Source: Deltaproteobacteria bacterium
GTDB lineage: Bacteria; Desulfobacterota; Desulfomonilia; UBA1062
DNA length: 64,000 nt
Direction: 5' to 3'
Assembly (NCBI GenBank): GCA_018433085.1
Contig: JAHDRW010000011.1
Location: forward strand, 55,224 to 119,223
The translations under genes and the position numbers were made by a program. Of this stretch, positions 51,906 to 62,125 are shown piece by piece; the stretch's first letter is position 1; the number at the start of each line of letters is the position of its first letter. A model generated the notes under the pieces. The model saw only the letters and a list, made by a program, of their open reading frames with translations. It had not been told where the DNA came from and ran no database searches.

Positions 51906-51992
51906 GCCGGAGTGGTGGAAGTGGTAGACGCGTCGGACTCAAAATCCGATGAGCGCAAGCTCGTGGGGGTTCAAGTCCCTTCTCCGGCACCA
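51906..51992 (+). tRNA. tRNA-Leu (anticodon CAA), type II with a long variable arm, CCA encoded
   Basis: Acceptor stem GCCGGAG/CTCCGGC, D-arm GTGGTGGAAGTGGTAGACGC, anticodon stem-loop TCGGA-CTCAAAA-TCCGA and a 16-nt variable arm. Its 3' 55 nt are duplicated 6.3 kb downstream. Confidence 0.85.
51938..51992 (+). repeat. attL: a 55-bp core inside the 3' half of tRNA-Leu, identical to 58284..58338
   Basis: An exact 55/55 match, with divergence immediately on both sides of the repeat. Confidence 0.85.
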
Positions 51993-52022
51993 TATTTTTA
52001 TTAAAGATTTTCCAAAAGAAGG

Positions 52023-53129
52023 TCATCTCTTAAACCCATTGATAACAGTAAGTGTGCCCAAATTGTGCCCATCGCCCGATCGGGAGAGGGTATCGTCGTT
52101 CTCCTGATACATGCTGGAGACCTTCTCGCAGGCAAGCCGGATATCATCTTCACTGGTAATATTGTACCTGTCGAATATGCTTCGTGTCTTGTGACCCGAT
52201 ATCCTCATGGCTACCACTTCAGACACCCCCGAACGAACCATATTCCTCACTGCCGTTCTTCTCAAGTCGTGGAATAAACGGCCCTCAAGATTGGTTTGCT
52301 TGAGCGCCTTCTCCCACACAGCTCGGAAGGTCTTGATTAGGGGCTCATCCTCTTCGTGATTGTAGAAGACATAAGTGCACTCCGGGTTTGTTGCGTCACG
52401 GATCTTCTTCTGTGTGAGAATGGTATCGAAGAGCTCACCATACATATAAACCACCCTGCCTTCACCGTTTTTTGTCGATCCCGGTTCCAGGACTATTCGA
52501 TGAGCCCAGATATCCACCTGATGCCACTGGAGGGCCAGGAGTTCCCCTCGCCTCATGCCCGTGTGATAGGCTGCAATCAGCAACGGCCTGGCGTAAGCAG
52601 GCAGGGCATCCCGGAGTTTCACGTATTCGTCAAACTCAAAGAAGCCTGTTCTCGCGTTGCTTTCTTTCAGCTTAGGGATATGCGGCACCATCATCACCTT
52701 TGGTGGTGTATGTCTTGAGCCAATAATGAAAGCCCTATGAAGAGCGCTCAGTTCGCGGTTAATAGTGCCATTCTTCGCTCCTGCTTCCCTGCGGGTCAGA
52801 ATATATTGCTGAACACTGTTTGTTGTGACCCGGCAAGCCCTGGCATCTCCGAAGAATTCCTTGAGATGATTAACGCTCGATTCTAGCCGCACCAGAGATT
52901 TCCTCTCCATTAGGCGATATTCGGAGATTGTATCCTCCAAGAGTTCCTTCACTGTTGTGCGTTCTACTTGAAGCCCTTGGAAGGTTCCTTGCGCAATGGA
53001 GCCTTCCCTGAGCTTCAGGAGCTTTTCAGCCACAGTCTTTTTCTCCGAGTGTGAAGATTCCCGATACGGTTTTCCATCACGATAATACTTGATCCACCAG
53101 ACATTGCCTCGCTGAAAAACGCTTCCCAT
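52023..53129 (-). CDS. int: Tyrosine-type site-specific integrase
   Basis: N-terminal SAM-like/arm-binding region and C-terminal catalytic domain (...RHTPPKVMMVPH...HDLRRTAVRNMVRSG...GHKTRSIFDRY). It lies next to the tRNA. Confidence 0.85.
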   Translation of the reverse strand: MGSVFQRGNVWWIKYYRDGKPYRESSHSEKKTVAEKLLKLREGSIAQGTFQGLQVERTTVKELLEDTISEYRLMERKSLVRLESSVNHLKEFFGDARACRVTTNSVQQYILTRREAGAKNGTINRELSALHRAFIIGSRHTPPKVMMVPHIPKLKESNARTGFFEFDEYVKLRDALPAYARPLLIAAYHTGMRRGELLALQWHQVDIWAHRIVLEPGSTKNGEGRVVYMYGELFDTILTQKKIRDATNPECTYVFYNHEEDEPLIKTFRAVWEKALKQTNLEGRLFHDLRRTAVRNMVRSGVSEVVAMRISGHKTRSIFDRYNITSEDDIRLACEKVSSMYQENDDTLSRSGDGHNLGTLTVINGFKR

Positions 53130-53281
53130 ATCAAACCACCTTAACCTTTCTCGCCGTGGGTACTGCCTTTGTGCACACCTCCTTTCTCTCCATGGACTCG
53201 AAACAGAACAGGTGAATTGTCTTTGGCTTCCTGTTCTGGCTCTGCCCTAATTGTAGTCTCATCTTCATGGTAATGTAAGCC

Positions 53282-53482
53282 TCAAAAAGGATAGGTTGTC
53301 TTGCTCTTCTCAATCCACTTGTCCATATCGTTCACATCAAGGAGCACGCGCCTTCCATCACGGACACAGGGAATCTTGCCCGCCCAGACCATTTCTCGGA
53401 TTGCCCAGGGAGTTCGGCCAAGGTAGGTTGCGGACTCCTTTATGGAATACAATCTCTTTAATGGTCTTGTCTTTTCTGCCAT
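53282..53482 (-). CDS. alpA: AlpA-family phage transcriptional regulator / excisionase-like HTH
   Basis: The 66-aa product has RLYSIKESATYLGRTPWAIREMVWAGKIPCVRDGRRVL, the AlpA/MerR-like HTH pattern. It sits directly upstream of int. Confidence 0.7.
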   Translation of the reverse strand: MAEKTRPLKRLYSIKESATYLGRTPWAIREMVWAGKIPCVRDGRRVLLDVNDMDKWIEKSKTTYPF

Positions 53483-53492
53483 TCGTTCAGTT

Positions 53493-53687
53493 TTAAGATG
53501 CTCTCATGTATATCCGCTGCTTTGACCTTGCCGCATTCTCAAGAACACCGATCCTTGAATCCACGTAATCATATACAGTGGCCTCATTCTTCCCTGGTGC
53601 CGGTCTAGCAATCACTACACACCCCATGTGATACAGCCGAAAAGCCGAAAACGCCGCCCGCAGGATTTTGGCCCTTTTTCTTCCCAT
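53493..53687 (-). CDS. Small hypothetical protein (64 aa)
   Basis: ORF lying between alpA and the next cargo gene. Support comes from context only. Confidence 0.2.
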   Translation of the reverse strand: MGRKRAKILRAAFSAFRLYHMGCVVIARPAPGKNEATVYDYVDSRIGVLENAARSKQRIYMRAS

Positions 53688-53870
53688 TTTCCCAGTTGAC
53701 GTGCTGCATAAGATTACCCCCTACCCCTGGTAATACTAGAGAGTACTGTCACCCATGCCCCCCATTGGGTCTTTTGGGGATTTATGGGCATGTCTGCCTG
53801 CAAGGTATCATGATTGCCTGTTTTGCCGCTTCTCTGGGCTTTTCTTTCGGCTGTCATCTATGCCCCCCTT

Positions 53871-54461
53871 TCACTGCTGCCTTTTAGGTCTTCGGCTGTC
53901 ACCCACGACAGTGAGTCGGCTATCGCCCATGTCAGTCGAAAATGTTTTATCTCCCGCCACTGCCCGCAATCTCTTTCCGGCCGTCCTGGCCTGGTTGTAT
54001 ATTGCCAGAGAGTCGCTGAAGCACACCCCCTTCGGTGCAGTCCTTTGGGTAAAAGCAGAGGTTCCATAATGCTTCCAGTCATCAATAAGGTCATACTCGC
54101 TGCATTCCTTATGACCACGAAACTGGCCGCCTTGCTTGGCAATTTCGAGGAAGCCGTGCTCTATGAGTTCCTTAAGGCAACGCCTGAACTGCTTTGCATT
54201 AATGCCGTATGCCGCCGCTTCACTGTATGGAAGTTTCAGCCCGGTATTATGGTAAACAGGCTTCTTCTTGCGGCCTTGTTTATCGGTGTGCCATCCTCGC
54301 CTTGAGAGAAATAGCATCAGGATGTACTTGGCTGTGTGCGTTAACGAGATGAAAGCCTCAGACCGAAGCATCTCCTGAGGCATCCGCAGATCGCGTTCAT
54401 GATACCACTTATTCTGTTTCAGATTCTTTATGTCCGGTGATTTCATAGGTTCTCCCTGCAA
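53871..54461 (-). CDS. Hypothetical protein with a winged-helix-like segment; possible replication or regulatory function
   Basis: Segment YSEAAAYGINAKQFRRCLKELIEHGFLEIAKQGG resembles a wHTH. No catalytic motif is present. A start at the internal Met (54446) is possible. Confidence 0.4.
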   Translation of the reverse strand: MQGEPMKSPDIKNLKQNKWYHERDLRMPQEMLRSEAFISLTHTAKYILMLFLSRRGWHTDKQGRKKKPVYHNTGLKLPYSEAAAYGINAKQFRRCLKELIEHGFLEIAKQGGQFRGHKECSEYDLIDDWKHYGTSAFTQRTAPKGVCFSDSLAIYNQARTAGKRLRAVAGDKTFSTDMGDSRLTVVGDSRRPKRQQ

Positions 54462-54577
54462 TGCGGCAAACCTGCCGGGTGATGCTGAGGGAGATGCAGC
54501 ACCATCTTTTCACGTGGTTCCCTGCCACGCGCCCGGCAAGCGCCATTGACTTTGTAAAGCCTGAGTGTGCTTCAGAA

Positions 54578-54961
54578 TTATATCCGGCTTGATGAATCAT
54601 GCACTTTCTCCCAGCGGGGGCGAAAAACACCCCTGCCGGTGATGTTTTTTTGAGAAAGAGGGGCATTCTGGTGGTTCTCTCTTGCCTGCCTGAAGGGGTG
54701 AAGTGGGCAGTCACTACTTGGGCACAGACGAACTTCAGAAGGTTGCCCTGCGCAACACCACAGACAGTAAGACCGAATCGCCCTGTTTCTGTCTTTCGGG
54801 TTTTGTTTCCCTCTGCCCATCCTGAAAGGATAAAGGGCACAATCTGTCATGGGACACTCGGCTACATCCTTCGTGCTCCTGGCTGAACAATCAAGGCATT
54901 TCTCTCGGATAGCTTGCCGCCTGTTGAGTTTACCCCTTAGTTTACAAGACTTTTTATTCAT
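54578..54961 (-). CDS. Small Cys-rich protein with two tandem C4 zinc-ribbon repeats
   Basis: Internal duplication: AIREKCLDCSARSTKDVAECPMTDCALYPFR and AIRSYCLWCCAGQPSEVRLCPSSDCPLHPFR. Each copy is C-x2-C-x9-C-P-x3-C-x-L-[YH]-P-F-R. Confidence 0.5.
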   Translation of the reverse strand: MNKKSCKLRGKLNRRQAIREKCLDCSARSTKDVAECPMTDCALYPFRMGRGKQNPKDRNRAIRSYCLWCCAGQPSEVRLCPSSDCPLHPFRQARENHQNAPLSQKNITGRGVFRPRWEKVHDSSSRI

Positions 54962-54972
54962 GCCGCTTCGTC

Positions 54973-55209
54973 CTACACAACTCCCGCTTCATTTGTTTTA
55001 TGCTCGTCTGCATATGCCTCATCCTCGCTCAATCCCAGGCAGGAGCAGAGTTTCTTGACTCTCTTATCACCCAGCTTAGGCCTGTCGATGCCTGCACTGA
55101 TTTTGTAGAGCATCCCCGGCGATACACCTGCATCCCACGCGATCTGATAAAGAGGCTTCCCTGATTCCTTTACGCTTTTCAGCGCTTTCATGAACTTCTC
55201 GCTAACCAT
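54973..55209 (-). CDS. Cro/CI-type (XRE-like) HTH DNA-binding protein
   Basis: HTH segment KPLYQIAWDAGVSPGMLYKISAG. The start was moved to the ATG at 55209. The gene lies divergent from the resolvase across an AT-rich promoter region. Confidence 0.5.
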   Translation of the reverse strand: MVSEKFMKALKSVKESGKPLYQIAWDAGVSPGMLYKISAGIDRPKLGDKRVKKLCSCLGLSEDEAYADEHKTNEAGVV

Positions 55210-55714
55210 TTCGTTTCCCCTTTGTTGGCTTGTCGCCCATTGCTCTGTTTCCCCTGATGATATTTTTAAGTTTTCTCTCAAGTTTTTCTCTCATCTGCCG
55301 AATATATTTTTATTCTGCGCGTCTATATTCCTTATCGTCTGAAGTCTAGAGTGCATCTAGTAGAAAATAAGAAAAAAGATCTCCTCAGTTGCTCGCTAGC
55401 CTTGTTTTTTCTCCGCTAATGAGTAAGGCAATTGTTAGGACTGCCTAGTGCCTTTGCTCTGTAGATATTCAGTAAATACCACCATTGCTTGGCCGAATAT
55501 TTCAGGTTTTATCAGGTTGTCATGGAATAACTCCTCTTTAGGTACTGAAACTTAAGTTATCTAAAGTAATTGATACGCTATTTGATCGACACTAGATCCC
55601 TTAACCAGACCAGGCTTTTTTACACACCGGACGGTATGTAAAAACCAATGGTTGACTATGGATGATAATTGTATTAGATTTATTGGAGATAATTGATATA
55701 TGGAGGTGAGGGCT

Positions 55715-56389
55715 ATGAGATATGTTATTTATCTGAGGGTAAGCACGGATGAGCAGGCAGACAGCAAGGCAGGGCTCAATGCTCAGTTGGATTCCTGCAG
55801 GGCGCACATTAAACGAAATAGTGGTGAATGCCTTGATGTCTTTTCTGACGAGGGAATCAGCGGAGCCGCAGGCTTGGAGAAAAGGCCCGGATTGCTCCAA
55901 GCCATTGCTTCACTCGACAAGGGTGACACCCTATTGGTTGCCAAACGGGACCGGCTCGGAAGAGATCCTATCGTAACGGCCATGATTGAGAGCGCCATTG
56001 CCCGGAAGAAGGCAAGGGTAGTTTCAGCGGCGGGGGAAGGCACGGATGGTGATAGCCCTTCCGATGTTCTCATGAGAAGGATGATAGATGCCTTTGCGGA
56101 ATACGAACGATTAATCATCAAGGCCCGGACATCGAGTGCATTGCAGGCCAAGAAGACGCGAAATGAGCGTGTGGGCTCCATTCCTTACGGCTTCAGGCTT
56201 TCTGGTGACGGCGTACACATTGAAGAGAACCCGGCAGAGCAGGAGGTTATAACCGAGATCAGGAGACTTGGAACGGCAGGACTTAACCTTCCGGCCATAT
56301 GCAGAGAGCTTGAACGAAAGGGATTCACCACCAGGACGGGCAAGGCATTCCTGCCCGTACAGGTTCAGAGGGTATTGAAAGCGGCATGA
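55715..56389 (+). CDS. Serine recombinase (resolvase/invertase family)
   Basis: N-terminus MRYVIYLRVSTDEQ with the catalytic Ser, followed by DTLLVAKRDRLGRD and a C-terminal recombinase/HTH extension. A GGAGGTGAGGG RBS is present. Confidence 0.8.
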   Translation: MRYVIYLRVSTDEQADSKAGLNAQLDSCRAHIKRNSGECLDVFSDEGISGAAGLEKRPGLLQAIASLDKGDTLLVAKRDRLGRDPIVTAMIESAIARKKARVVSAAGEGTDGDSPSDVLMRRMIDAFAEYERLIIKARTSSALQAKKTRNERVGSIPYGFRLSGDGVHIEENPAEQEVITEIRRLGTAGLNLPAICRELERKGFTTRTGKAFLPVQVQRVLKAA

Positions 56390-56721
56390 GCAAGAAGGCA
56401 ATCAACATGGATATGGTGCGGGAAGCCAGGGCAAACCTTGAGCGTATCGCCAGGGAGCACCCGGAGCTTACGAACCTGTCCGGTGATGATGTGGAACGAT
56501 TATTACAGGGAGTGTTCAACGAAATGGTAGACAAAGACAAACTGACCTTCTCTCTTGGAGAGGCAGCGGAGGTTCTGGGGCTTCACAAGGAATACCTGAG
56601 GCGTAAAATCAAAGACGGTTCTCTCAAGGCCATGAAGACCGGGAAGCAGTACATCATCTCACGGCCAGACCTGCAGGCTTACTATTCAAAGCATGGCGGC
56701 GGCAAGCTGTTCGATGATTGA
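56386..56721 (+). CDS. Excisionase-family helix-turn-helix DNA-binding protein
   Basis: C-terminal FSLGEAAEVLGLHKEYLRRKIKDGSLKAMKTGKQYIISRPDLQAYY matches the excisionase-family HTH. The ATG overlaps the resolvase stop (ATGA). Confidence 0.6.
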   Translation: MSKKAINMDMVREARANLERIAREHPELTNLSGDDVERLLQGVFNEMVDKDKLTFSLGEAAEVLGLHKEYLRRKIKDGSLKAMKTGKQYIISRPDLQAYYSKHGGGKLFDD

Positions 56722-57181
56722 TTTCAGACAATAGAGACTTGCATCGCTGCCCTCTGCGGTCAAGTGGCAAGGATGTTAGCAAATATTAGCATCAAAGGAG
56801 CCCTCGATAATAAGTAACAAGAAGGGAAATCATCAGTGTCCGAGATTGTTGACAAATGTTTACATTCAGGAAGCCCTTGATTATAAGAGACCGGATACAG
56901 CGAGAAGACCGCAGCCAATATAGCGTCAGAGAACCTTAGAAAACCATATATTCAGGAAGCTCTCCGCGAACTCCGCGAAAAATTGGCTCAGAAAACCGCA
57001 TTGTATACCGAGAAGACCGCTAAAGATATCTCATACCAAGACAACAATTATAGTAAATATATCTAAGCCTGATGCACAGCGGTATTCTCTTTTTTATCTT
57101 AATCATACACATTGTCCCTTGCAACAGAGACTTTTCTTCTTTATTAATAATACAGTGTTATTCTTGTTTAGGAGGACTGAA

Positions 57182-57541
57182 ATGAGGTATTTGATAGCCA
57201 TTGTCTGTATGCTTTCCCTGTCCGGGTGCGCCGTGAATGCTACCGGCATCAGTAGGGATACCGGCGAAACTTTGTCTATCCACTATCAGAGTAATGCTAT
57301 AACGAACAAAATCTCTGCCGCTGCCGGAGATGAGTCGTTCAGGGGTAAGATAGTCTCCACGGGTGGCGGGACTATTTCCGATGAATACGGCAACCGAGTC
57401 AAAATCTCCGGGAACACCTACAGGGCTGTTTTTGTCGGAGACAGAGGCCGCACCATGAGGTGTGAGCTGTGCGGTGGCCTTGCAAGCGGTGTCGGCACCT
57501 GTATTACATCGGATGGGGAAGAGTTCGATGTTATGTGGTAG
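57182..57541 (+). CDS. Hypothetical lipoprotein (120 aa)
   Basis: Lipobox MRYLIAIVCMLSLSGCAV. A GGAGGA RBS is present. No known domain. Confidence 0.5.
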   Translation: MRYLIAIVCMLSLSGCAVNATGISRDTGETLSIHYQSNAITNKISAAAGDESFRGKIVSTGGGTISDEYGNRVKISGNTYRAVFVGDRGRTMRCELCGGLASGVGTCITSDGEEFDVMW

Positions 57542-57571
57542 AAGCGTAATATCTCTAACTCTGTAGTCGTT

Positions 57572-58045
57572 ATGAGAGGTTGGGTCTATATAATTACGAA
57601 CAAAGCAATGCCGGGTCTTGTTAAAATTGGGTTTTCAATGAGAGATCCTGTAAATCGCGCATCCGAACTCGATAACACAGGCTCACCCCATCCTTATGTT
57701 GTTGAGTATGATATGCTTATTGAAGACCCGCAACAGCTTGAAAAGCAAGTTCATGAGACTCTTAAGAATGCGAATGAAGGGAAAGAATGGTTCCGTTGCT
57801 CAGTGCATGATGCGATAAAAGAAATCCAGAAGGCGTCGTTGGGTAAATTCATATATCAGAACTATACTAATAACGAGAAAGAAAATGACAGGGTTGTTTA
57901 TTGGCATAAAGAGATAGATATGGAACGCCCCCCATCCAAAACTGCCCAAGATACACAATCACCTCTAAGACAGAAAGAAGTGTATGACTCGACTGAAAAA
58001 CTGAGATTATGGCAAGAGAAGGTCTATAAGGCCAAAAAGCCCTGA
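57572..58045 (+). CDS. T5orf172 / GIY-YIG-like domain protein
   Basis: WVYIITNKAMPGLVKIGFSMRDPVNRASELDNTGSPHPYVVEY...EWFRCSVHDA matches the T5orf172 (GIY-YIG-related) domain pattern. Confidence 0.6.
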   Translation: MRGWVYIITNKAMPGLVKIGFSMRDPVNRASELDNTGSPHPYVVEYDMLIEDPQQLEKQVHETLKNANEGKEWFRCSVHDAIKEIQKASLGKFIYQNYTNNEKENDRVVYWHKEIDMERPPSKTAQDTQSPLRQKEVYDSTEKLRLWQEKVYKAKKP

Positions 58046-58283
58046 TTCACATTTTCCCCAGATTAGGAATGCTCCCCTATGCTGTAAGGGGGAAATTGAT
58101 AGTTTTCAAATATCGGTCAATCCCATTATTCATGGGAAAAAGGAGTGTGCCCAAATTGTGCCCACGACGGCTAAATTCTTCCCAATTCCTACCAACTCCT
58201 ACCAACTAGCCGAATTGCTTAACCGATTGAAATCATTTGCCAGTGCGCCTTTGCAGGCTAGTAATATCAAACGGTTAATGCTC

Positions 58284-58338
58284 TCAAAATCCGATGAGCG
58301 CAAGCTCGTGGGGGTTCAAGTCCCTTCTCCGGCACCAC
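58284..58338 (+). repeat. attR: a 55-bp direct repeat of the tRNA-Leu 3' half
   Basis: Identical to 51938..51992 and ending with the CCA-equivalent bases. The flanks diverge. Confidence 0.85.
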
Positions 58339-58861
58339 ATCTTTCTAATCGGTCTGAGGGCGCCGACATTTTTTTCGCAGGTCCACCGAGTGTATTGTTT
58401 ACCTCCACGCTTTTCACTCCAGGAGGAAGACGCGGAAATCATTACCAGGTCCATAGCCCTCCCGGTCTGGACCTCGAGTCCTGATATATTCACGGTTGCC
58501 GCTCATAAAGGACCATGCTGTCCTGAGGAGCCGAACTCGCGTAGTGGTATGGAGTAGAAAGCCTCCGATTCCCGGGAATAAGAAAAAACCGAGCCCTGGA
58601 TTAAGAGCATACCGATATCCTTTCAGTATTCTCCTGCCTGAGAATGTGAACTCGTCCCCGGATTCCCCCGAGGAGAAAAATCTCAAAGGACGGGGTCGAT
58701 TCTCATGGCGTTATTGCATAAGGGTGGTAAACTTACCATTCCCATTTTTGGTAAACTTTTATCTTCCCGTTGACAATAATACCGATTAATCAAAGAAGAC
58801 ATCGGCTATCGAAGGGGGGATTTCTCGGTTCCTTTCCTGGTGGAATTCAAGCAGGGGGAGT

Positions 58862-59305
58862 ATGGAGGGATTGATTCGTGCGGCTGTCGGGCGTTTCCGG
58901 TTCGAGATCATCAATCCTTTCGAAGTCGGCAACGGACGCATAGCGCGGGCTCTCACGGACATGGCCCTTGCCCAGGACGATTCTCAGAAGCACAGGTATT
59001 ACAGCTTGTCATCCCAGATCATGGAGGAGCGGGAGAGCTGCTGCGATGTCCTGGAAGCCTGTCAGAAGGGGGCCAGCGACATCACCCCGTGGCTTGTCTG
59101 GTTCCTGGAATGTTTCTCCCGGGCCATTGACCGGTCCGAGCTCCTCCTATCCGGAGTCATCAGAAAGGCGAGCTTCTGGAGGATGCATGCACAGACATCA
59201 CTGAACGAGAGGCAGCACAAGGTCATCAATAGGCTTCTCGATGCAGGGCCGAATGGTTTCGAAGGAGGCCTTACCACAAGGAAGTACGCTTCGTGGCCAA
59301 AGTGA
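58862..59305 (+). pseudogene. Fic-family protein remnant (5'-truncated, motif His replaced by Asn)
   Basis: FRFEIINPFEVGNGRIARAL corresponds to the Fic motif HPFxxGNGR, with N in place of H. The roughly 100-aa N-terminal helical region is absent and no upstream in-frame continuation exists. Confidence 0.5.
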
Positions 59306-59453
59306 GCAAGCCTACAGCATTCCGCGAGATCAACCGGCACCTCGAACTGGGCATCATAAGCCCGAATCCGGGTAGGGGGAGAAGTGTGAGCTATGACCTG
59401 ATCTGGCCCTGATATATGCCTTCCGGGGAATTCATCCGATGTCCACGAATTTG

Positions 59454-60257
59454 CTAGGCCACGCTCTCGGCGCTGTAGCGGGCGATGAGGCCGGTGCGCA
59501 CGGCGTGGCGAAAGGTCCGGGCGAAAAACAGGCCCGCGAGCAGGATATACAGCGCGGCAAGGCCGGCACTCATGAGCAGGACGGAGCCGGACGCCGATCC
59601 GCCTGATATGATCGAGCGCATGCCTTCGAACACGTATGCAGGCGGGAGCAGGCGCGATATGTACTGCATCCACTCGGGCAGCGTGGAGAGCGGGTAGAAC
59701 ACCCCGGCAAAGGGTGAGAGGAGCGCGGGAACGGGCCACACGAACCACTCCGCCGATGGGCCGAGCCTGAGCACCATGGCGCTCGCAAAGATGCCGAGCG
59801 CGATCCCGAACAGAAAGAGCACCAGGAGAAAGGGAAAGATCGCGATGCCGTAAATAAAGAATGAAAGCCCGAACACGAGCGTGGCGAGCACGAGCATCAC
59901 GACGAGCCCGATCGAGCTCGTGATGATGCTGGAGAGCACGAGGCCGCCCAGGTATTCGGAAATGGAGAGCGGTGTGGCGAAAAAGTTGAGGAAGTTTCTG
60001 GACCACACATCCTCGAAAAAGGCCATGGTCACCCCCTGCATGACCCGGATGAAGAAATCCCAGAGCAGGACCGCACCCAGAAGGATGGGCACGAAGTTGA
60101 GCCCGCTGACCGTGACGGTGTTGAGGTATTTCGTGATGAAGCCCCAGAGCACGATATCGATGGCGACCCAGGCAAAGAGCGGCACCACGCGCGAGAAGCT
60201 CCCGCGGATGAGATAGAACTGGCGCAGCACCACAGCCGACACGCGGTTCAGGTTCAC
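59454..60257 (-). CDS. ABC-2-type exporter permease
   Basis: Six TM helices characteristic of ABC-2 permeases. The start is taken as the GTG at 60257 (GGAGG RBS), overlapping the ATPase stop in GTGA fashion. Confidence 0.7.
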   Translation of the reverse strand: MNLNRVSAVVLRQFYLIRGSFSRVVPLFAWVAIDIVLWGFITKYLNTVTVSGLNFVPILLGAVLLWDFFIRVMQGVTMAFFEDVWSRNFLNFFATPLSISEYLGGLVLSSIITSSIGLVVMLVLATLVFGLSFFIYGIAIFPFLLVLFLFGIALGIFASAMVLRLGPSAEWFVWPVPALLSPFAGVFYPLSTLPEWMQYISRLLPPAYVFEGMRSIISGGSASGSVLLMSAGLAALYILLAGLFFARTFRHAVRTGLIARYSAESVA

Positions 60258-61030
60258 GGCAGCCTCCTGTTCCCGAGCGTGAGGGGCTCGCGAGCAACCG
60301 TGATGAAAAGCTCTTCGAGGTTCTCCTTGCCGTGCTTTGCAGGCAGGGATTTCGGGTCGCCTTCGAGCAGGATCTTCCCGTGCGAGAGAAAGAGCACCCG
60401 GTCGCACACCTCTTCGACCTCGTACATATTGTGTGAGGTCCACAGCACGCCTCCGGTGCTCTCCGAGGCGAACATGCGGATCTTCCGGCGGATTTCGCGG
60501 GCAGTCGCAGGGTCGAGCGACGCGGTCGGCTCGTCGAGCAGAAGGAGATCGGGCCGGTTGAGCATGGCCTTGGCAAGACTTGCGCGAGTCTGTTCACCGG
60601 AAGAGAGCACGCCGCATTTCACGTTGCGAAACGTGGTGAGATCGAACTGTGCGAGGAGCTCCTCGATCCTGGATGAGAGGTTTTTCACCGCATAGATCAG
60701 CCCGAAGACGCGCAGGTTCTGATACACGGTCAGGTTGCCCGGAAGCGGGGCGTAGACGGCCGCGAAGTTCGTGCGCGCGAGCGCCTGTGACCGGCGGGAG
60801 CGGATATCCGACCCTTCGATGAGTATGGTGCCGCAGCTCGGCTCGAGAACGCCCAGGATCATGTTGATGGTCGTGGTTTTTCCCGCCCCGTTGGGCCCCA
60901 GCAGGCCGACGATCTCGTTTGCACCAACCTCGAAGGAGATATCGTCCACGGCGAGGGTGTCGCCGTACCGCTTGCACAGCCCGCTCACCGAAAGCACTTT
61001 CATTGTCCGATACGCCTTTGTCTTCTCCAT
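60254..61030 (-). CDS. ABC transporter ATP-binding protein
   Basis: Walker A GPNGAGKTT, signature LSSGEQ and Walker B LLLLDEP. Confidence 0.85.
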   Translation of the reverse strand: MEKTKAYRTMKVLSVSGLCKRYGDTLAVDDISFEVGANEIVGLLGPNGAGKTTTINMILGVLEPSCGTILIEGSDIRSRRSQALARTNFAAVYAPLPGNLTVYQNLRVFGLIYAVKNLSSRIEELLAQFDLTTFRNVKCGVLSSGEQTRASLAKAMLNRPDLLLLDEPTASLDPATAREIRRKIRMFASESTGGVLWTSHNMYEVEEVCDRVLFLSHGKILLEGDPKSLPAKHGKENLEELFITVAREPLTLGNRRLP

Positions 61031-61322
61031 GCGCCTTTATGATATGGTAATGTTCTCTCTTTTCGATGTCTTCTCAAGCGGCCCGCTGAAGCGGGTATCT
61101 CTTGAGAAGGGGAAATCGCGGAAATCCAAGCCCCAGTGGTACCGTCTCCAGCCATGCGCAGTAAGAAGCGGGTGTTTAAGATGGGTTCGGGACAACCGGG
61201 ATCCTCACCGTGCTCCGGACGCCGGGCCTCGCGCCGCTTGTGCGGAAAGGAGGCAGGCCCTTTGAGACGGCCGGACAGGAGCGGCACTGTGGACGGCTTT
61301 CACGGAACACGGTGCAGCCGCC

Positions 61323-61934
61323 TCACCATGACGGATAGATCCAGGGGAGCACCCATATCCCGAGGTTCGCCGCCGCGTGGACCGTATAGGGTGCCCAGAC
61401 GCTGCCCCGCCACTCGTAGAGCCCTGCGAAGATCAGGCCTCCGGCAAGCTGCACCGGCGCGATGAAACCGTGCATCCCCGCGAAGAAAAGGGCCGATACG
61501 ACGATGGAGACGATCACGGGCATCCTCTGCCTGAGCCACGAATAAAGGAGACCGCGGAAAAAGAGCTCCTCTGCAAAGGGGGCGATTACGCACCCGACCA
61601 GAAAGAACAGGACGGGATCGGCCACCTCCTGCCTCCCGATGAGGAATCTCAAGGCGCCGCCTTCGAGGAGCGCCCGGGAGGCGGCGTCTCCCAGGGCGAC
61701 CATGGCGCCGAAGACACCGGCGACCCCCGCCCCGATGAGGATCTCGCGCAGTATGGACCGGGCGCGGACCCCGCTGAGCTGAAACGCGAGTCCGAGGATG
61801 ATGAGCGTTTCCACCAGCCGGACCAGCAGGGTGAAGAGCAGGGGGTTCATCGGGAGCGAAACAGTTCTGTACACAAGCCTGAATGCAAGCTCCACGAGAA
61901 TGACGATCAATATTACGCCGATGCGCCTGTCCAT
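61323..61934 (-). CDS. CPBP-family intramembrane metalloprotease (CAAX protease-like)
   Basis: Conserved EELFFRG...FAGMHG motifs and a multi-TM topology. The start was moved to the ATG at 61934. Confidence 0.7.
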   Translation of the reverse strand: MDRRIGVILIVILVELAFRLVYRTVSLPMNPLLFTLLVRLVETLIILGLAFQLSGVRARSILREILIGAGVAGVFGAMVALGDAASRALLEGGALRFLIGRQEVADPVLFFLVGCVIAPFAEELFFRGLLYSWLRQRMPVIVSIVVSALFFAGMHGFIAPVQLAGGLIFAGLYEWRGSVWAPYTVHAAANLGIWVLPWIYPSW

Positions 61935-62125
61935 ATGTGGCTTACCGTTATACGATCGCGGGCAGGGAATCACAAGCCCAATATCCGGGGGGGGTGTCTG
62001 CAAGCACCCATCCGAGCTTGCACCGCTCTGCCCCGATCAACATCGCGGAGTGCCGGTTATGCAGCGGAAGGCAAAGCATGTGGGAATTGACGATGTGCGG
62101 GGAATCTGATTTAACCATAACCATT

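What the first reader, a model, noticed from the sequence alone, without database searches (positions are those of the whole stretch)
51938..58338. Small integrative element in tRNA-Leu(CAA) bounded by a perfect 55-bp direct repeat
The sequence shows an exact 55-bp duplication of the tRNA 3' half (51938..51992 and 58284..58338) framing 6.3 kb. The interval holds a tRNA-adjacent tyrosine integrase, alpA directly upstream of int, a Cro-like HTH at a divergent AT-rich promoter, a serine resolvase with an excisionase-family HTH, and cargo genes of unknown function. The int-alpA juxtaposition and small size resemble Gram-negative phage satellites (PICI-like elements) and small mobilisable islands, which in other genomes are recognised hotspots for anti-phage cargo. 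No capsid, terminase or mob genes are present. The element therefore cannot move on its own and may be helper-dependent or undescribed.
Basis: partly seen in the sequence, partly recalled or inferred. Interest (0 to 1): 0.7.

Follow-up and report, generated by a model that had tools for sequence, protein, structure and literature searches.

The report
Small mobile island in tRNA-Leu gene
A 6.3-kb piece of foreign DNA sits in a leucine tRNA gene; related bacteria have the same site empty, so it moved recently, but it is a small, unusual example of a well-known kind of mobile island, not a new kind.

Summary
The 6,290 bp between the copies have GC 0.48, against 0.59 for the rest of the window.

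The island is real and moved recently. Two related host lineages occur both with an element carrying this integrase and with the tRNA site empty. The integrase DNA is 99.6-100% identical across hosts whose neighbouring genes are only 68-91% identical.

The contents are:
- a tyrosine integrase, an excisionase and paired 21-bp candidate arm sites;
- a rare winged-helix protein with a conserved array of iteron-like repeats, which I read as a plasmid-like origin;
- a double zinc-finger protein of unknown fold;
- a stump of a deleted SF2 helicase;
- a plasmid-type serine recombinase with an HTH partner;
- a lipoprotein and a T5orf172 (GIY-YIG) nuclease-like cargo gene.

The island is a mosaic of at least two related islands. 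Larger relatives carry a primase-helicase or a small terminase subunit, plus defence systems, so the family looks satellite-like. This copy has no packaging, capsid or conjugation gene, and how it passes between cells is unknown.

Verdict: a real island that is a new variant of a known kind, of moderate interest.

The parts
51906..51992 (+). tRNA-Leu(CAA), the integration target; it stays intact after insertion
   Evidence: ARAGORN; Rfam tRNA, 51.4 bits
51938..51992 (+). attL core: the 55-bp 3' half of the tRNA
   Evidence: Exact repeat of 58283-58337. In occupied versus empty relatives, sequence identity starts exactly at the tRNA 3' end.
52023..53129 (-). Tyrosine integrase, 368 aa
   Evidence: PF00589 at 1.6e-20 and phrog_1 at 1.5e-51. 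The DNA is 99.6-100% identical in hosts whose flanking genes are 68-91% identical.
52051..52071 (+). Candidate integrase arm-type site near attL: two TGTGCCCA copies 11 bp apart, inside the 3' end of int
   Evidence: Exact 21-bp direct repeat of 58144-58164. Four of the five TGTGCCCA copies in the window lie in these two sites. The arm-site role is inferred.
53282..53482 (-). Excisionase / AlpA-type HTH protein, 66 aa
   Evidence: PF12728 HTH_17 at 8.7e-10, TIGR01764 'excise' at 1.4e-8, phrog_66
53493..53687 (-). Stump of a deleted SF2 (ResIII/DEAD) helicase gene, a 64-codon chimeric ORF
   Evidence: Its C-terminal 51 residues align to the end of the intact 461-aa helicase in L027 (65%) and to the 455-aa helicases in L015-18 (54%). 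About 1.26 kb of L027 (10859-12120) is missing here.
53625..53931 (-). Iteron-like array, a candidate replication origin: four direct copies (minus-strand starts 53931, 53907, 53862, 53757; spacing 24, 45, 105) and one inverted copy (53625-53640) of CATGGGTGACAGCCGA
   Evidence: Five matches in the window against 0.94 expected; 0 of 100 shuffles reach five. Four of the five lie in this array, three of the direct copies and the inverted one; the fifth match, at 55918-55933, lies outside it, and the fourth direct copy was read from the sequence. The same 24/45/105 spacing occurs in L027, L011 and L015, where the adjacent protein is only 61-70% identical.
53871..54461 (-). p196: a rare winged-helix protein and candidate origin-binding initiator or helicase loader
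54578..54961 (-). cys127: a tandem Cys4 zinc-knuckle protein that always sits just upstream of the replication gene in relatives; function unknown
54973..55281 (-). First gene of the leftward operon, 102 aa; a possible HTH regulator, found only in this variant
   Evidence: Only sub-threshold HTH_31/HTH_3 and phrog_8 hits. Absent from L006, L027 and L035.
55617..55644 (.). Palindrome TTTTTACACACCG-GA-CGGTATGTAAAAA, 56 nt upstream of the recombinase gene: a candidate crossover site or operator
   Evidence: Arms of 13 nt, 92% complementary, with a 2-nt centre. A palindrome of the same build (..CACCG-NN-CGGT..) precedes the homologue on plasmid pALVIN02 and in L035. It is the only such site in the element.
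55700..56389 (+). Small serine recombinase, 229 aa
   Evidence: PF00239 at 2.7e-32. Best matches are plasmid genes: 63% to Solidesulfovibrio magneticus pDMC1 and 54% to Allochromatium pALVIN02.
56386..56721 (+). HTH_17 partner of the recombinase, 111 aa, with a 4-nt ATGA overlap
   Evidence: PF12728 at 8.3e-10. It is 43% identical to the gene in the same position on pDMC1. The pair is 95-99.6% identical in L035.
56774..57020 (+). Non-coding stretch with 73-108-bp spaced imperfect repeats between the recombinase operon and the cargo genes; function unknown
   Evidence: The block is conserved, within a region of 94.7% identity, in L035, where the 86-bp repeat is also seen.
57119..57541 (+). Small predicted lipoprotein (cargo); the likely start gives 119 aa with an LSLSGC lipobox
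   Evidence: ORF and lipobox read from the sequence. No family hit.
57572..58045 (+). T5orf172 / GIY-YIG-superfamily protein (cargo), 157 aa
   Evidence: PF10544 at 1.4e-13; PADLOC candidate PDC-S57 at 5e-23 and PD-Lambda-1 at 2.8e-7. Homologues share only the N-terminal ~95 aa.
58144..58164 (+). Candidate integrase arm-type site near attR
   Evidence: Exact copy of 52051-52071, 119 bp from the core
58283..58337 (+). attR core: the partial tRNA copy
   Evidence: The next 35 nt resemble the native sequence downstream of the tRNA at the empty site in L023 (permutation p about 0.008).

Best explanation
This is an intact, recently mobile integrative island, not a prophage or a conjugative element.

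Shown: it lies between a 55-bp duplication of the tRNA-Leu(CAA) 3' half. The same site is empty in near-identical relatives. Its integrase is almost identical across diverged hosts.

Inferred mechanism:
1. The tyrosine integrase recombines a 55-bp core on the circular element with the identical 3' half of the tRNA gene, which rebuilds the tRNA.
2. The two 21-bp TGTGCCCA-N3-TGTGCCCA sites near each end are its arm sites, and the 66-aa HTH_17 protein upstream of int acts as the directionality factor for excision.
3. Once excised, the 6.3-kb circle behaves like a small iteron plasmid. The winged-helix protein p196 binds the conserved four-plus-one repeat array at the end of its own gene and recruits host replication proteins.
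4. The element's own SF2 helicase has been deleted. Some relatives lack that helicase naturally, so replication may still be possible.
5. The plasmid-type serine recombinase, with its HTH partner, resolves multimers at the single palindrome upstream of its gene.
6. The T5orf172 nuclease-like protein and the lipoprotein are cargo, possibly for defence or exclusion.

Cell-to-cell transfer is not encoded. The most likely route is hitch-hiking in phage capsids, because relatives sharing the core module carry a lone small terminase subunit or a P4/PICMI-type primase-helicase. This copy is a mosaic: the int, xis and recombinase modules come from an L035-like island, and the zinc-finger and winged-helix module comes from an L027-like island.
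For: Integration and mobility:
- Exact 55-bp att repeat, and a tRNA-adjacent integrase.
- Occupied loci L001, L002 and L006 are 99.98-100% identical in their flanks to empty loci L023 and L024. Occupied L003 and L007 are 96-97.4% identical to empty L022, L025 and L026. In each case identity starts at the tRNA 3' end.
- The int DNA is 99.6-100% identical while the adjacent FGGY gene is 86.5-91% and the fn3 gene 68-77% identical.
- The whole element is 99.8-100% identical in independent samples.

Candidate arm sites: an exact 21-bp repeat near both ends.

Replicon:
- p196 has a winged-helix fold with replication-initiator-like best hits, plus a DnaD-like PHROG hit.
- The repeat array is above chance. 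It keeps the same 24/45/105 spacing in relatives whose protein is only 61-70% identical.

Resolution: the recombinase and HTH pair is conserved on plasmids pDMC1 and pALVIN02, with a palindrome of the same build upstream of the pALVIN02 gene (none found in pDMC1).

Mosaic origin: 95% DNA identity to L027 over 53604-54931, and 94.7% to L035 over 55525-57038.

Satellite-like relatives: a small terminase subunit (phrog_51, 1.4e-29) in L011-14, a DUF3987 primase-helicase in L035, and type I restriction-modification, Gabija-like, Lamassu-like and type IIG-like cargo.
Against: - No circular junction (attP) was observed. The 6,350-bp Logan contigs stop 30 nt into each repeat copy, which is what a k=31 assembly graph produces for any repeat-bounded segment.
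- The comparisons across host lineages show only the int-xis end. Other variants (L006, L035) share that integrase, so the spread of this exact 6.3-kb variant across hosts is not shown. Only 3 contigs carry its T5orf172 gene.
- The first two repeat copies lie inside the p196 coding sequence.
- The helicase is deleted.
- This element has no terminase, pac or cos site, or primase, and no relative of its proteins appears in IMG/VR viral contigs.
- The defence role of the cargo rests on an untested PADLOC candidate family.
Confidence: 0.6

Rival explanations
1. A true helper-dependent phage satellite (PICI-, PICMI- or VEIME-like). A helper phage induces excision, and the element is packaged, probably as concatemers, into helper capsids. 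The T5orf172 protein acts on the helper, as such domains do in the PLE-ICP1 conflict.
For: The element has int plus an AlpA/Xis-type HTH_17 protein, is small, and has no structural genes. Relatives with the same core module carry a lone small terminase subunit or a DUF3987 primase-helicase with the same int, xis and recombinase genes, and they carry defence cargo. PICMIs are 6.1 kb and have no capsid-remodelling genes (PMC10803314). Some VEIME groups carry both a tyrosine and a serine recombinase (PMC9618062). T5orf172 domains take part in satellite-phage conflicts (PMC8096241, PMC10448857).
Against: This element has no primase or replicase and no terminase, so it fails the defining gene sets. 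No relative was found in IMG/VR viral contigs. No helper is known and no encapsidation data exist. The recombinase pair is closest to plasmid genes, not phage genes.
Confidence: 0.3
2. A non-autonomous derivative that depends on an intact sibling island. It keeps the origin and initiator but has lost the helicase, so it replicates only when an L027-type island supplies the helicase in trans. The L027-type island sits in a different tRNA-Leu gene (anticodon TAG).
For: The helicase deletion leaves the whole repeat array intact. The zinc-finger and p196 module is 95% identical in DNA to that of L027, which has an intact helicase, a different integrase (49% identical) and a different tRNA target. 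The two islands would therefore not compete for a site.
Against: Co-residence in one genome was not shown. Relatives L011-14 lack the helicase naturally, so the helicase may be dispensable.
Confidence: 0.15
3. An integrative mobilisable element that is moved by a co-resident conjugative system through an unrecognised oriT.
For: The recombinase pair has plasmid affinity. The non-coding repeat regions at 56774-57020 and 55282-55699 are unexplained. The element is small and has no packaging genes.
Against: No relaxase, coupling-protein or other transfer family was hit in this element. None appears among the precomputed Pfam hits of the genes called in the relatives examined, nor in those proteins of the relatives that were scanned. 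Some relatives carry terminase genes instead.
Confidence: 0.1
4. A decaying remnant of an island or prophage that is no longer mobile. On this reading the similarity between hosts reflects homologous recombination of a shared int-xis segment.
For: The helicase is deleted. A truncated Fic gene just outside attR shows that the locus collects debris. The contigs of other hosts show only the int-xis end.
Against: The att copies are perfect and the paired 21-bp sites are exact. int, xis and all other ORFs are intact. Two host lineages show occupied versus empty polymorphism with breakpoints exactly at the tRNA end. No phage structural gene is present.
Confidence: 0.08

Closest known systems
Tycheposons and the 'cryptic' tRNA-flanked elements of Prochlorococcus (bioRxiv 10.1101/2020.12.28.424599)
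   Same: Integration at a tRNA that leaves a partial tRNA copy. A tyrosine recombinase with an excisionase. Helicase or primase replication genes. Small serine recombinases listed among the hallmark genes. Cargo genes. Tandem insertions and degraded remnants next to the tRNA. No capsid or conjugation genes.
   Different: The hosts here are uncultured deltaproteobacteria from anaerobic digesters. Tycheposons are defined by shared hallmark gene families, and homology to those families was not tested. The replicon candidate here is a winged-helix protein plus iteron-like repeats, together with a zinc-finger protein not reported for tycheposons.
PICMI, phage-inducible chromosomal minimalist islands of Vibrionaceae (PMC10803314)
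   Same: About 6 kb in size. Has int and an AlpA/HTH_17 protein. One or two unknown genes lie between alpA and the replication gene. No capsid-remodelling genes. A small anti-phage cargo. The larger relative L035 has the same DUF3987-type primase.
   Different: This copy has no primase. It integrates in tRNA-Leu with a 55-bp core, not next to fis with 17-bp repeats. It carries an extra serine recombinase pair. No helper phage is known.
VEIMEs, virion-encapsidated integrative mobile elements (PMC9618062)
   Same: Small integrative elements without capsid genes. Some groups have both a tyrosine and a serine recombinase, and some have plasmid-like replication genes.
   Different: VEIMEs are defined by being found as concatemers inside virus particles. 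No such data exist here.
PICIs and P4-like satellites as defined by SatelliteFinder (PMC10085698, PMC8628076)
   Same: An int and alpA arrangement, tRNA-type integration, defence cargo in relatives, and a small terminase subunit in some relatives.
   Different: This copy has no primase-replicase and no hit to any capsid, packaging-redirection or terminase family, and the psu, delta and sid genes of P4 were not found among its family hits. The element is about half the usual size.
Iteron plasmids with a Rep protein and a resolvase (general knowledge; structural hit to 4pta)
   Same: A winged-helix protein next to an array of direct repeats. A serine recombinase with a single palindromic site upstream of its gene, whose closest homologues are on plasmids.
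   Different: The element is integrated in the chromosome through a tyrosine integrase. p196 has no sequence similarity to known Rep families, and no partition genes are present.

Membership tests
tRNA-integrated genomic island with a tyrosine integrase (generic class) | Direct repeat made from the 3' part of a tRNA gene, with the intact tRNA at one end | tested here: met
   55-bp exact repeat; tRNA-Leu(CAA) is intact
tRNA-integrated genomic island with a tyrosine integrase (generic class) | Integrase gene next to the tRNA-proximal end | tested here: met
   PF00589 gene ends 30 bp from the tRNA
tRNA-integrated genomic island with a tyrosine integrase (generic class) | Empty site in close relatives, and a composition unlike the host | tested here: met
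   Empty sites in L022-L026, with flanks up to 100% identical to occupied contigs. GC 0.478 against 0.591.
PICI (SatelliteFinder definition) | int and alpA present | tested here: met
   PF00589 and PF12728/TIGR01764 were hit. PF05930 (Phage_AlpA) itself was not hit.
PICI (SatelliteFinder definition) | Primase-replicase (pri-rep) gene | tested here: not met
   No primase or replicase family in any ORF. Only a helicase stump remains.
PICI (SatelliteFinder definition) | Induction and packaging by a helper phage | not testable with these tools
   No helper known; no relatives in IMG/VR
PICMI | Primase with DUF3987 or DUF5906 (mandatory in the published model, PMC10803314) | tested here: not met
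   Absent here; present in the larger relative L035
PICMI | Integration next to fis | tested here: not met
   Integrated in tRNA-Leu(CAA)
PICMI | About 6 kb, with int and alpA and no capsid-remodelling genes | tested here: met
   6.3 kb
P4-like satellite | psu, delta and sid capsid-size genes, epsilon, and the alpha primase | tested here: not met
   No matching Pfam, PHROG or NCBIfam hits
Tycheposon | Flanked by a full and a partial tRNA, with a tyrosine recombinase and replication hallmark genes | tested here: inconclusive
   The architecture matches. Homology to the tycheposon hallmark profiles was not tested because those profiles are not available here.
Integrative mobilisable element (IME) | Relaxase and/or oriT | tested here: not met
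   No relaxase or transfer family hit. An oriT without a relaxase cannot be recognised with these tools.
Prophage (intact or defective) | Capsid, terminase, tail or lysis genes | tested here: not met
   None among the 10 ORFs tested against Pfam and PHROGs
Iteron-type plasmid replicon | Winged-helix initiator next to an array of direct repeats | tested here: inconclusive
   [not shown]
PADLOC candidate defence family PDC-S57 | Profile match to the single-gene candidate | tested here: inconclusive
   E 5e-23, but only profile positions 5-107 of 212 are covered, which is the T5orf172 domain. The C-terminal half differs. The family itself is an untested candidate, and no paper mentions it.

The most novel reading that the evidence does not exclude
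The zinc-finger protein, the winged-helix p196 and the conserved 24/45/105-spaced repeat array may form a previously undescribed minimal replicon. It would define a new family of roughly 6-kb and larger phage-satellite-like islands in syntrophic deltaproteobacteria of anaerobic digesters. On this reading the window's copy is a non-autonomous, helicase-deleted derivative that keeps the origin and is propagated in trans by an intact sibling island sitting in a different tRNA-Leu gene. It would be a parasite of a satellite, comparable to a non-autonomous transposon derivative.
Probability: 0.12. Interest if true: 0.65.

Novelty: new variant of a known kind. Interest (0 to 1): 0.38.

Why it matters
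Small integrase-bearing islands at tRNA genes are a main route by which bacteria exchange defence and niche genes. Almost all mechanistic knowledge of them comes from enterobacteria, staphylococci, vibrios and marine cyanobacteria. This locus gives a well-bounded example from uncultured syntrophic bacteria of anaerobic digesters. The natural 'before and after' sites and the near-identical copies in diverged hosts show that the element is currently moving.

It also exposes a compact core module that is not in Pfam, in the PDB or in the viral collections searched. The module consists of a double zinc-knuckle protein, a rare winged-helix protein and a repeat array with conserved spacing. It recurs in larger islands that carry restriction-modification, Gabija-like and Lamassu-like systems. 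If the module is a replicon, it is a small and directly testable one. If the family proves to be phage satellites, that would extend satellites to a new host group.

The element itself does not change the current understanding of mobile islands.

Tried and rejected
- An exact-match scan of metagenome contigs for the attR junction (core plus right flank) found nothing. A scan with the tRNA itself worked.
- Look-ups of the window's own flanking proteins (the FGGY kinase and the ABC ATPase) found no record, so the source genome could not be traced that way.
- The 6,350-bp Logan contigs at first looked like excised circles. They were rejected as evidence because they end exactly 30 nt into each repeat copy, which is what a k=31 assembly graph produces.
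- DNA searches of the element against phage and plasmid collections gave nothing except a weak resolvase match.
- Scans of viral contigs with p196, the zinc-finger protein, the integrase and T5orf172 found no relatives.
- The zinc-finger alignment was too diverse for a genome-contig scan.
- The zinc-finger model had no PDB match. It had only marginal matches (E 0.04-0.4) to small uncharacterised phage proteins.
- PDB sequence hits of the 102-aa protein to designed armadillo repeats had no stretch passing the E-value threshold on its own (the stretches column reads 0), so I judged them spurious.
- A conserved lipoprotein plus T5orf172 gene pair was looked for and not found.
- A second recombinase site, which would imply inversion or excision of a cassette, was looked for and not found.
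- The promoter and terminator scan was no better than shuffled sequence.
- An Rfam scan of the region found only the tRNA.
- The prophage and conjugative-element readings were rejected because no hallmark genes are present.

Full report
**1. The observation**

ARAGORN places tRNA-Leu(CAA) at 51906-51992 on the + strand, and Rfam agrees. The last 55 nt of the tRNA (51938-51992) recur exactly at 58283-58337, with a mismatch immediately on each side.

A 25-mer from the repeat has only these two matches in 64 kb, and none in 100 shuffles. The 6,290 bp between the copies have GC 0.478, against 0.591 for the rest of the window. No other stretch of that length before the island falls below 0.547.

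**2. It is a real insertion that moved recently**

A scan of metagenome contigs with the tRNA sequence returned five loci in which the tRNA is not followed by the element. A look-up of the exact integrase protein returned contigs in which it is. Comparing the two sets gave the following.

| Occupied contigs | Empty contigs | Flank identity |
|---|---|---|
| L001, L002, L006 | L023, L024 | 99.98-100% |
| L003, L007 | L022, L025, L026 | 96-97.4% |

In every case the alignment begins exactly at the tRNA 3' end. Two host lineages therefore exist both with and without an element at this site.

Across these hosts and the window, the integrase gene is 99.6-100% identical in DNA. The adjacent chromosomal FGGY kinase gene is 86.5-91% identical and the fn3 gene 68-77%.

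In the window, the 35 nt after attR resemble the native sequence downstream of the tRNA in L023 (permutation p about 0.008). One short contig (L033) joins the element's right end to 'TGT', as in the L022-type flank. That is only 3 nt and is no more than a hint.

One caveat applies. The contigs from other hosts show only the int-xis end, and other variants share this integrase (see section 5). The full 6.3-kb variant is documented at 99.8-100% identity in Logan contigs of the same element (L004/L031 and L005/L032, the latter seen in three samples) and in L033. Those contigs stop 30 nt into each repeat copy, which is the expected k=31 assembly break, so they are not evidence of a circle.

**3. 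Integration module**

- The 368-aa tyrosine integrase (52023-53129, minus strand; PF00589 at 1.6e-20, phrog_1 at 1.5e-51) ends 30 bp from the tRNA.
- Upstream lies a 66-aa HTH_17 / TIGR01764 'excise' protein at 53282-53482.
- An exact 21-bp direct repeat, AGTGTGCCCAAATTGTGCCCA, lies 59 bp inside attL (52051-52071) and 119 bp inside attR (58144-58164). Each copy holds two TGTGCCCA octamers 11 bp apart.

I read these repeats as arm-type integrase sites. This is an inference from position and symmetry, by analogy with lambda-type integrases.

**4.

Three genes lie upstream of xis on the minus strand.

- *A 102-aa ORF (54973-55281).* It has only sub-threshold HTH hits.

The 16-mer CATGGGTGACAGCCGA is repeated across the 3' end of p196 and the spacer after it. 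There are four direct copies, with spacing 24, 45 and 105 nt, and one inverted copy. The window as a whole has five matches against 0.94 expected, and none of 100 shuffles reaches five. Four of the five lie in this array, three of the direct copies and the inverted one. The fifth is at 55918-55933, outside the array, and the fourth direct copy was read directly from the sequence.

The same array with the same 24/45/105 spacing occurs in L027, L011 and L015, although p196 is only 61-70% identical there and the motif has drifted. Spacing that is conserved while the sequence diverges argues for a functional cis site. An iteron-type origin bound by p196 is the simplest reading. Binding and replication are untested.

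**5. A deleted helicase and a mosaic origin**

The 64-codon ORF at 53493-53687 is a stump. Its last 51 residues align to the C-terminus of an SF2 (ResIII/DEAD/Helicase_C) helicase. That helicase is intact (461 aa) at the same position in L027, and about 1.26 kb of L027 is missing here. The deletion spares the repeat array. Relatives L011-14 lack this helicase naturally, so its loss need not abolish replication.

L027 comes from a MAG labelled Deltaproteobacteria bacterium LM3-B1m. It is itself a 6,386-bp island between 53-nt repeats of tRNA-Leu(TAG). Its gene order is: a 304-aa gene, HTH_17, the zinc-finger protein, p196, the helicase, xis and int. It is 95% identical in DNA to the window over 53604-54931, but its integrase is only 49% identical.

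L035 (NCBI GCA_018433775.1) shows the opposite pattern. Its integrase (94.6% aa), xis (95.5%), serine recombinase (99.6%) and HTH partner (95.5%) are closely related to the window's. Instead of p196 it has a 912-aa DUF3987 primase-helicase after its zinc-finger gene. It also carries a T5orf172-helicase fusion and type IIG-like methyltransferase genes.

L006 combines this int, xis, stump, p196 and zinc-finger set with a second, P4-type integrase.

The window's element is therefore a recombinant of at least two island lineages.

**6. The serine recombinase pair**

The 229-aa recombinase (55700-56389; PF00239 at 2.7e-32) overlaps a separate 111-aa HTH_17 gene by ATGA. The closest homologues of both are adjacent genes on plasmid pDMC1 of Solidesulfovibrio magneticus (63% and 43% aa). 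pALVIN02 of Allochromatium is next at 54%. Phage matches are 34% or lower.

A 13-2-13 palindrome lies 56 nt upstream of the gene (55617-55644). A counterpart of the same build precedes the pALVIN02 and L035 genes. It occurs only once in the element.

One site per monomer fits multimer resolution or autoregulation. It does not fit inversion or excision of a cassette.

**7. Cargo**

- The ORF at 57119-57541 encodes a small predicted lipoprotein with no family hit.
- The ORF at 57572-58045 encodes a T5orf172/MUG113 protein (PF10544 at 1.4e-13). It matches the PADLOC candidate PDC-S57 (5e-23) and PD-Lambda-1 (2.8e-7), through the T5orf172 domain only.
- Its homologues share just the N-terminal ~95 residues, and no conserved lipoprotein partner was found.
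- T5orf172 is a GIY-YIG subfamily. It is used by homing endonucleases, and its domains are engaged in the conflict between phage ICP1 and its satellite PLE (PMC8096241, PMC10448857).

A defence or exclusion role is plausible but untested.

**8. What kind of element it is**

No capsid, terminase, primase or relaxase family was hit in the 10 ORFs scanned; tail and lysis genes were also absent. The element fails the gene-content definitions of PICI, PICMI and P4-like satellites, and those of prophages and mobilisable elements.

Its relatives, however, look satellite-like. L011-14 carry a small terminase subunit (phrog_51 at 1.4e-29) as their only packaging gene, next to a type I restriction-modification system. 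L015-18 carry Gabija-like and Lamassu-like genes. L035 has the PICMI/P4-type primase. Against this, no relative was found in IMG/VR viral contigs.

The closest described analogues by architecture are:
- tycheposons and the 'cryptic' tRNA-flanked elements of Prochlorococcus (bioRxiv 10.1101/2020.12.28.424599);
- PICMIs (PMC10803314);
- VEIMEs (PMC9618062).

**9. Verdict**

The satellite label is not established for this copy.

My best explanation is a self-integrating, plasmid-like mini-island whose transfer between cells depends on something external, most likely phage capsids. Confidence is about 0.6 for the whole model and above 0.95 for 'recently mobile integrative island'.

It is a new variant of a known kind. 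Interest is moderate. The conserved module (zinc-finger protein, p196 and repeat array) and the natural occupied and empty site pairs are the most useful outcomes.

Noticed in passing
window 58338-59310: Just outside attR lies a stretch of intermediate GC (0.525) holding a truncated Fic/SoFic-like gene. Only the C-terminal half is present (58862-59305; it matches positions 179-302 of the 361-position SoFic profile). It may be debris of an older insertion at the same tRNA. No further att copy was found.
   Followed up: partly
window 59454-62003, compared with L022, L025, L026 and with L023, L024: The three host lineages differ in what follows the tRNA. In one lineage a CAAX-protease gene homologous to window 61333-61986 follows almost directly. 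In another, RodZ-like and MgtE-like genes that are absent from the window follow. In the window, the Fic fragment and an ABC-2 transporter pair lie in between. The tRNA-Leu(CAA) locus is a rearrangement hotspot beyond this one element.
   Followed up: partly
L035 15225-16726 (NCBI GCA_018433775.1): In this MAG the related island is followed by only a partial tRNA copy (55 nt with 2 mismatches) and then a second, unrelated 418-aa integrase gene. This looks like a tandem array of islands at the same site.
   Followed up: no
L006 1-2200: A variant with the identical integrase replaces the recombinase and cargo half with an HTH_17 gene, a 178-aa gene and a second, P4-type integrase. The element therefore has an integrase at both ends.
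   Followed up: partly
[not shown]
   Followed up: partly
window 56774-57020: The 397-bp gap between the recombinase operon and the cargo genes holds imperfect repeats spaced 73-108 bp apart, each with sigma-70-like hexamers. The block is conserved in L035. Possible roles are tandem promoters, accessory recombinase sites or a packaging or transfer site. It remains unexplained.
   Followed up: partly
window 53871-53931: The last ~20 codons of p196 carry two of the repeat copies, which produces the repeated peptide MGDSRLTVVGDSRR. The C-terminal tails of homologues vary in protein sequence but keep the DNA repeats, so this coding stretch seems constrained at the DNA level.
   Followed up: partly
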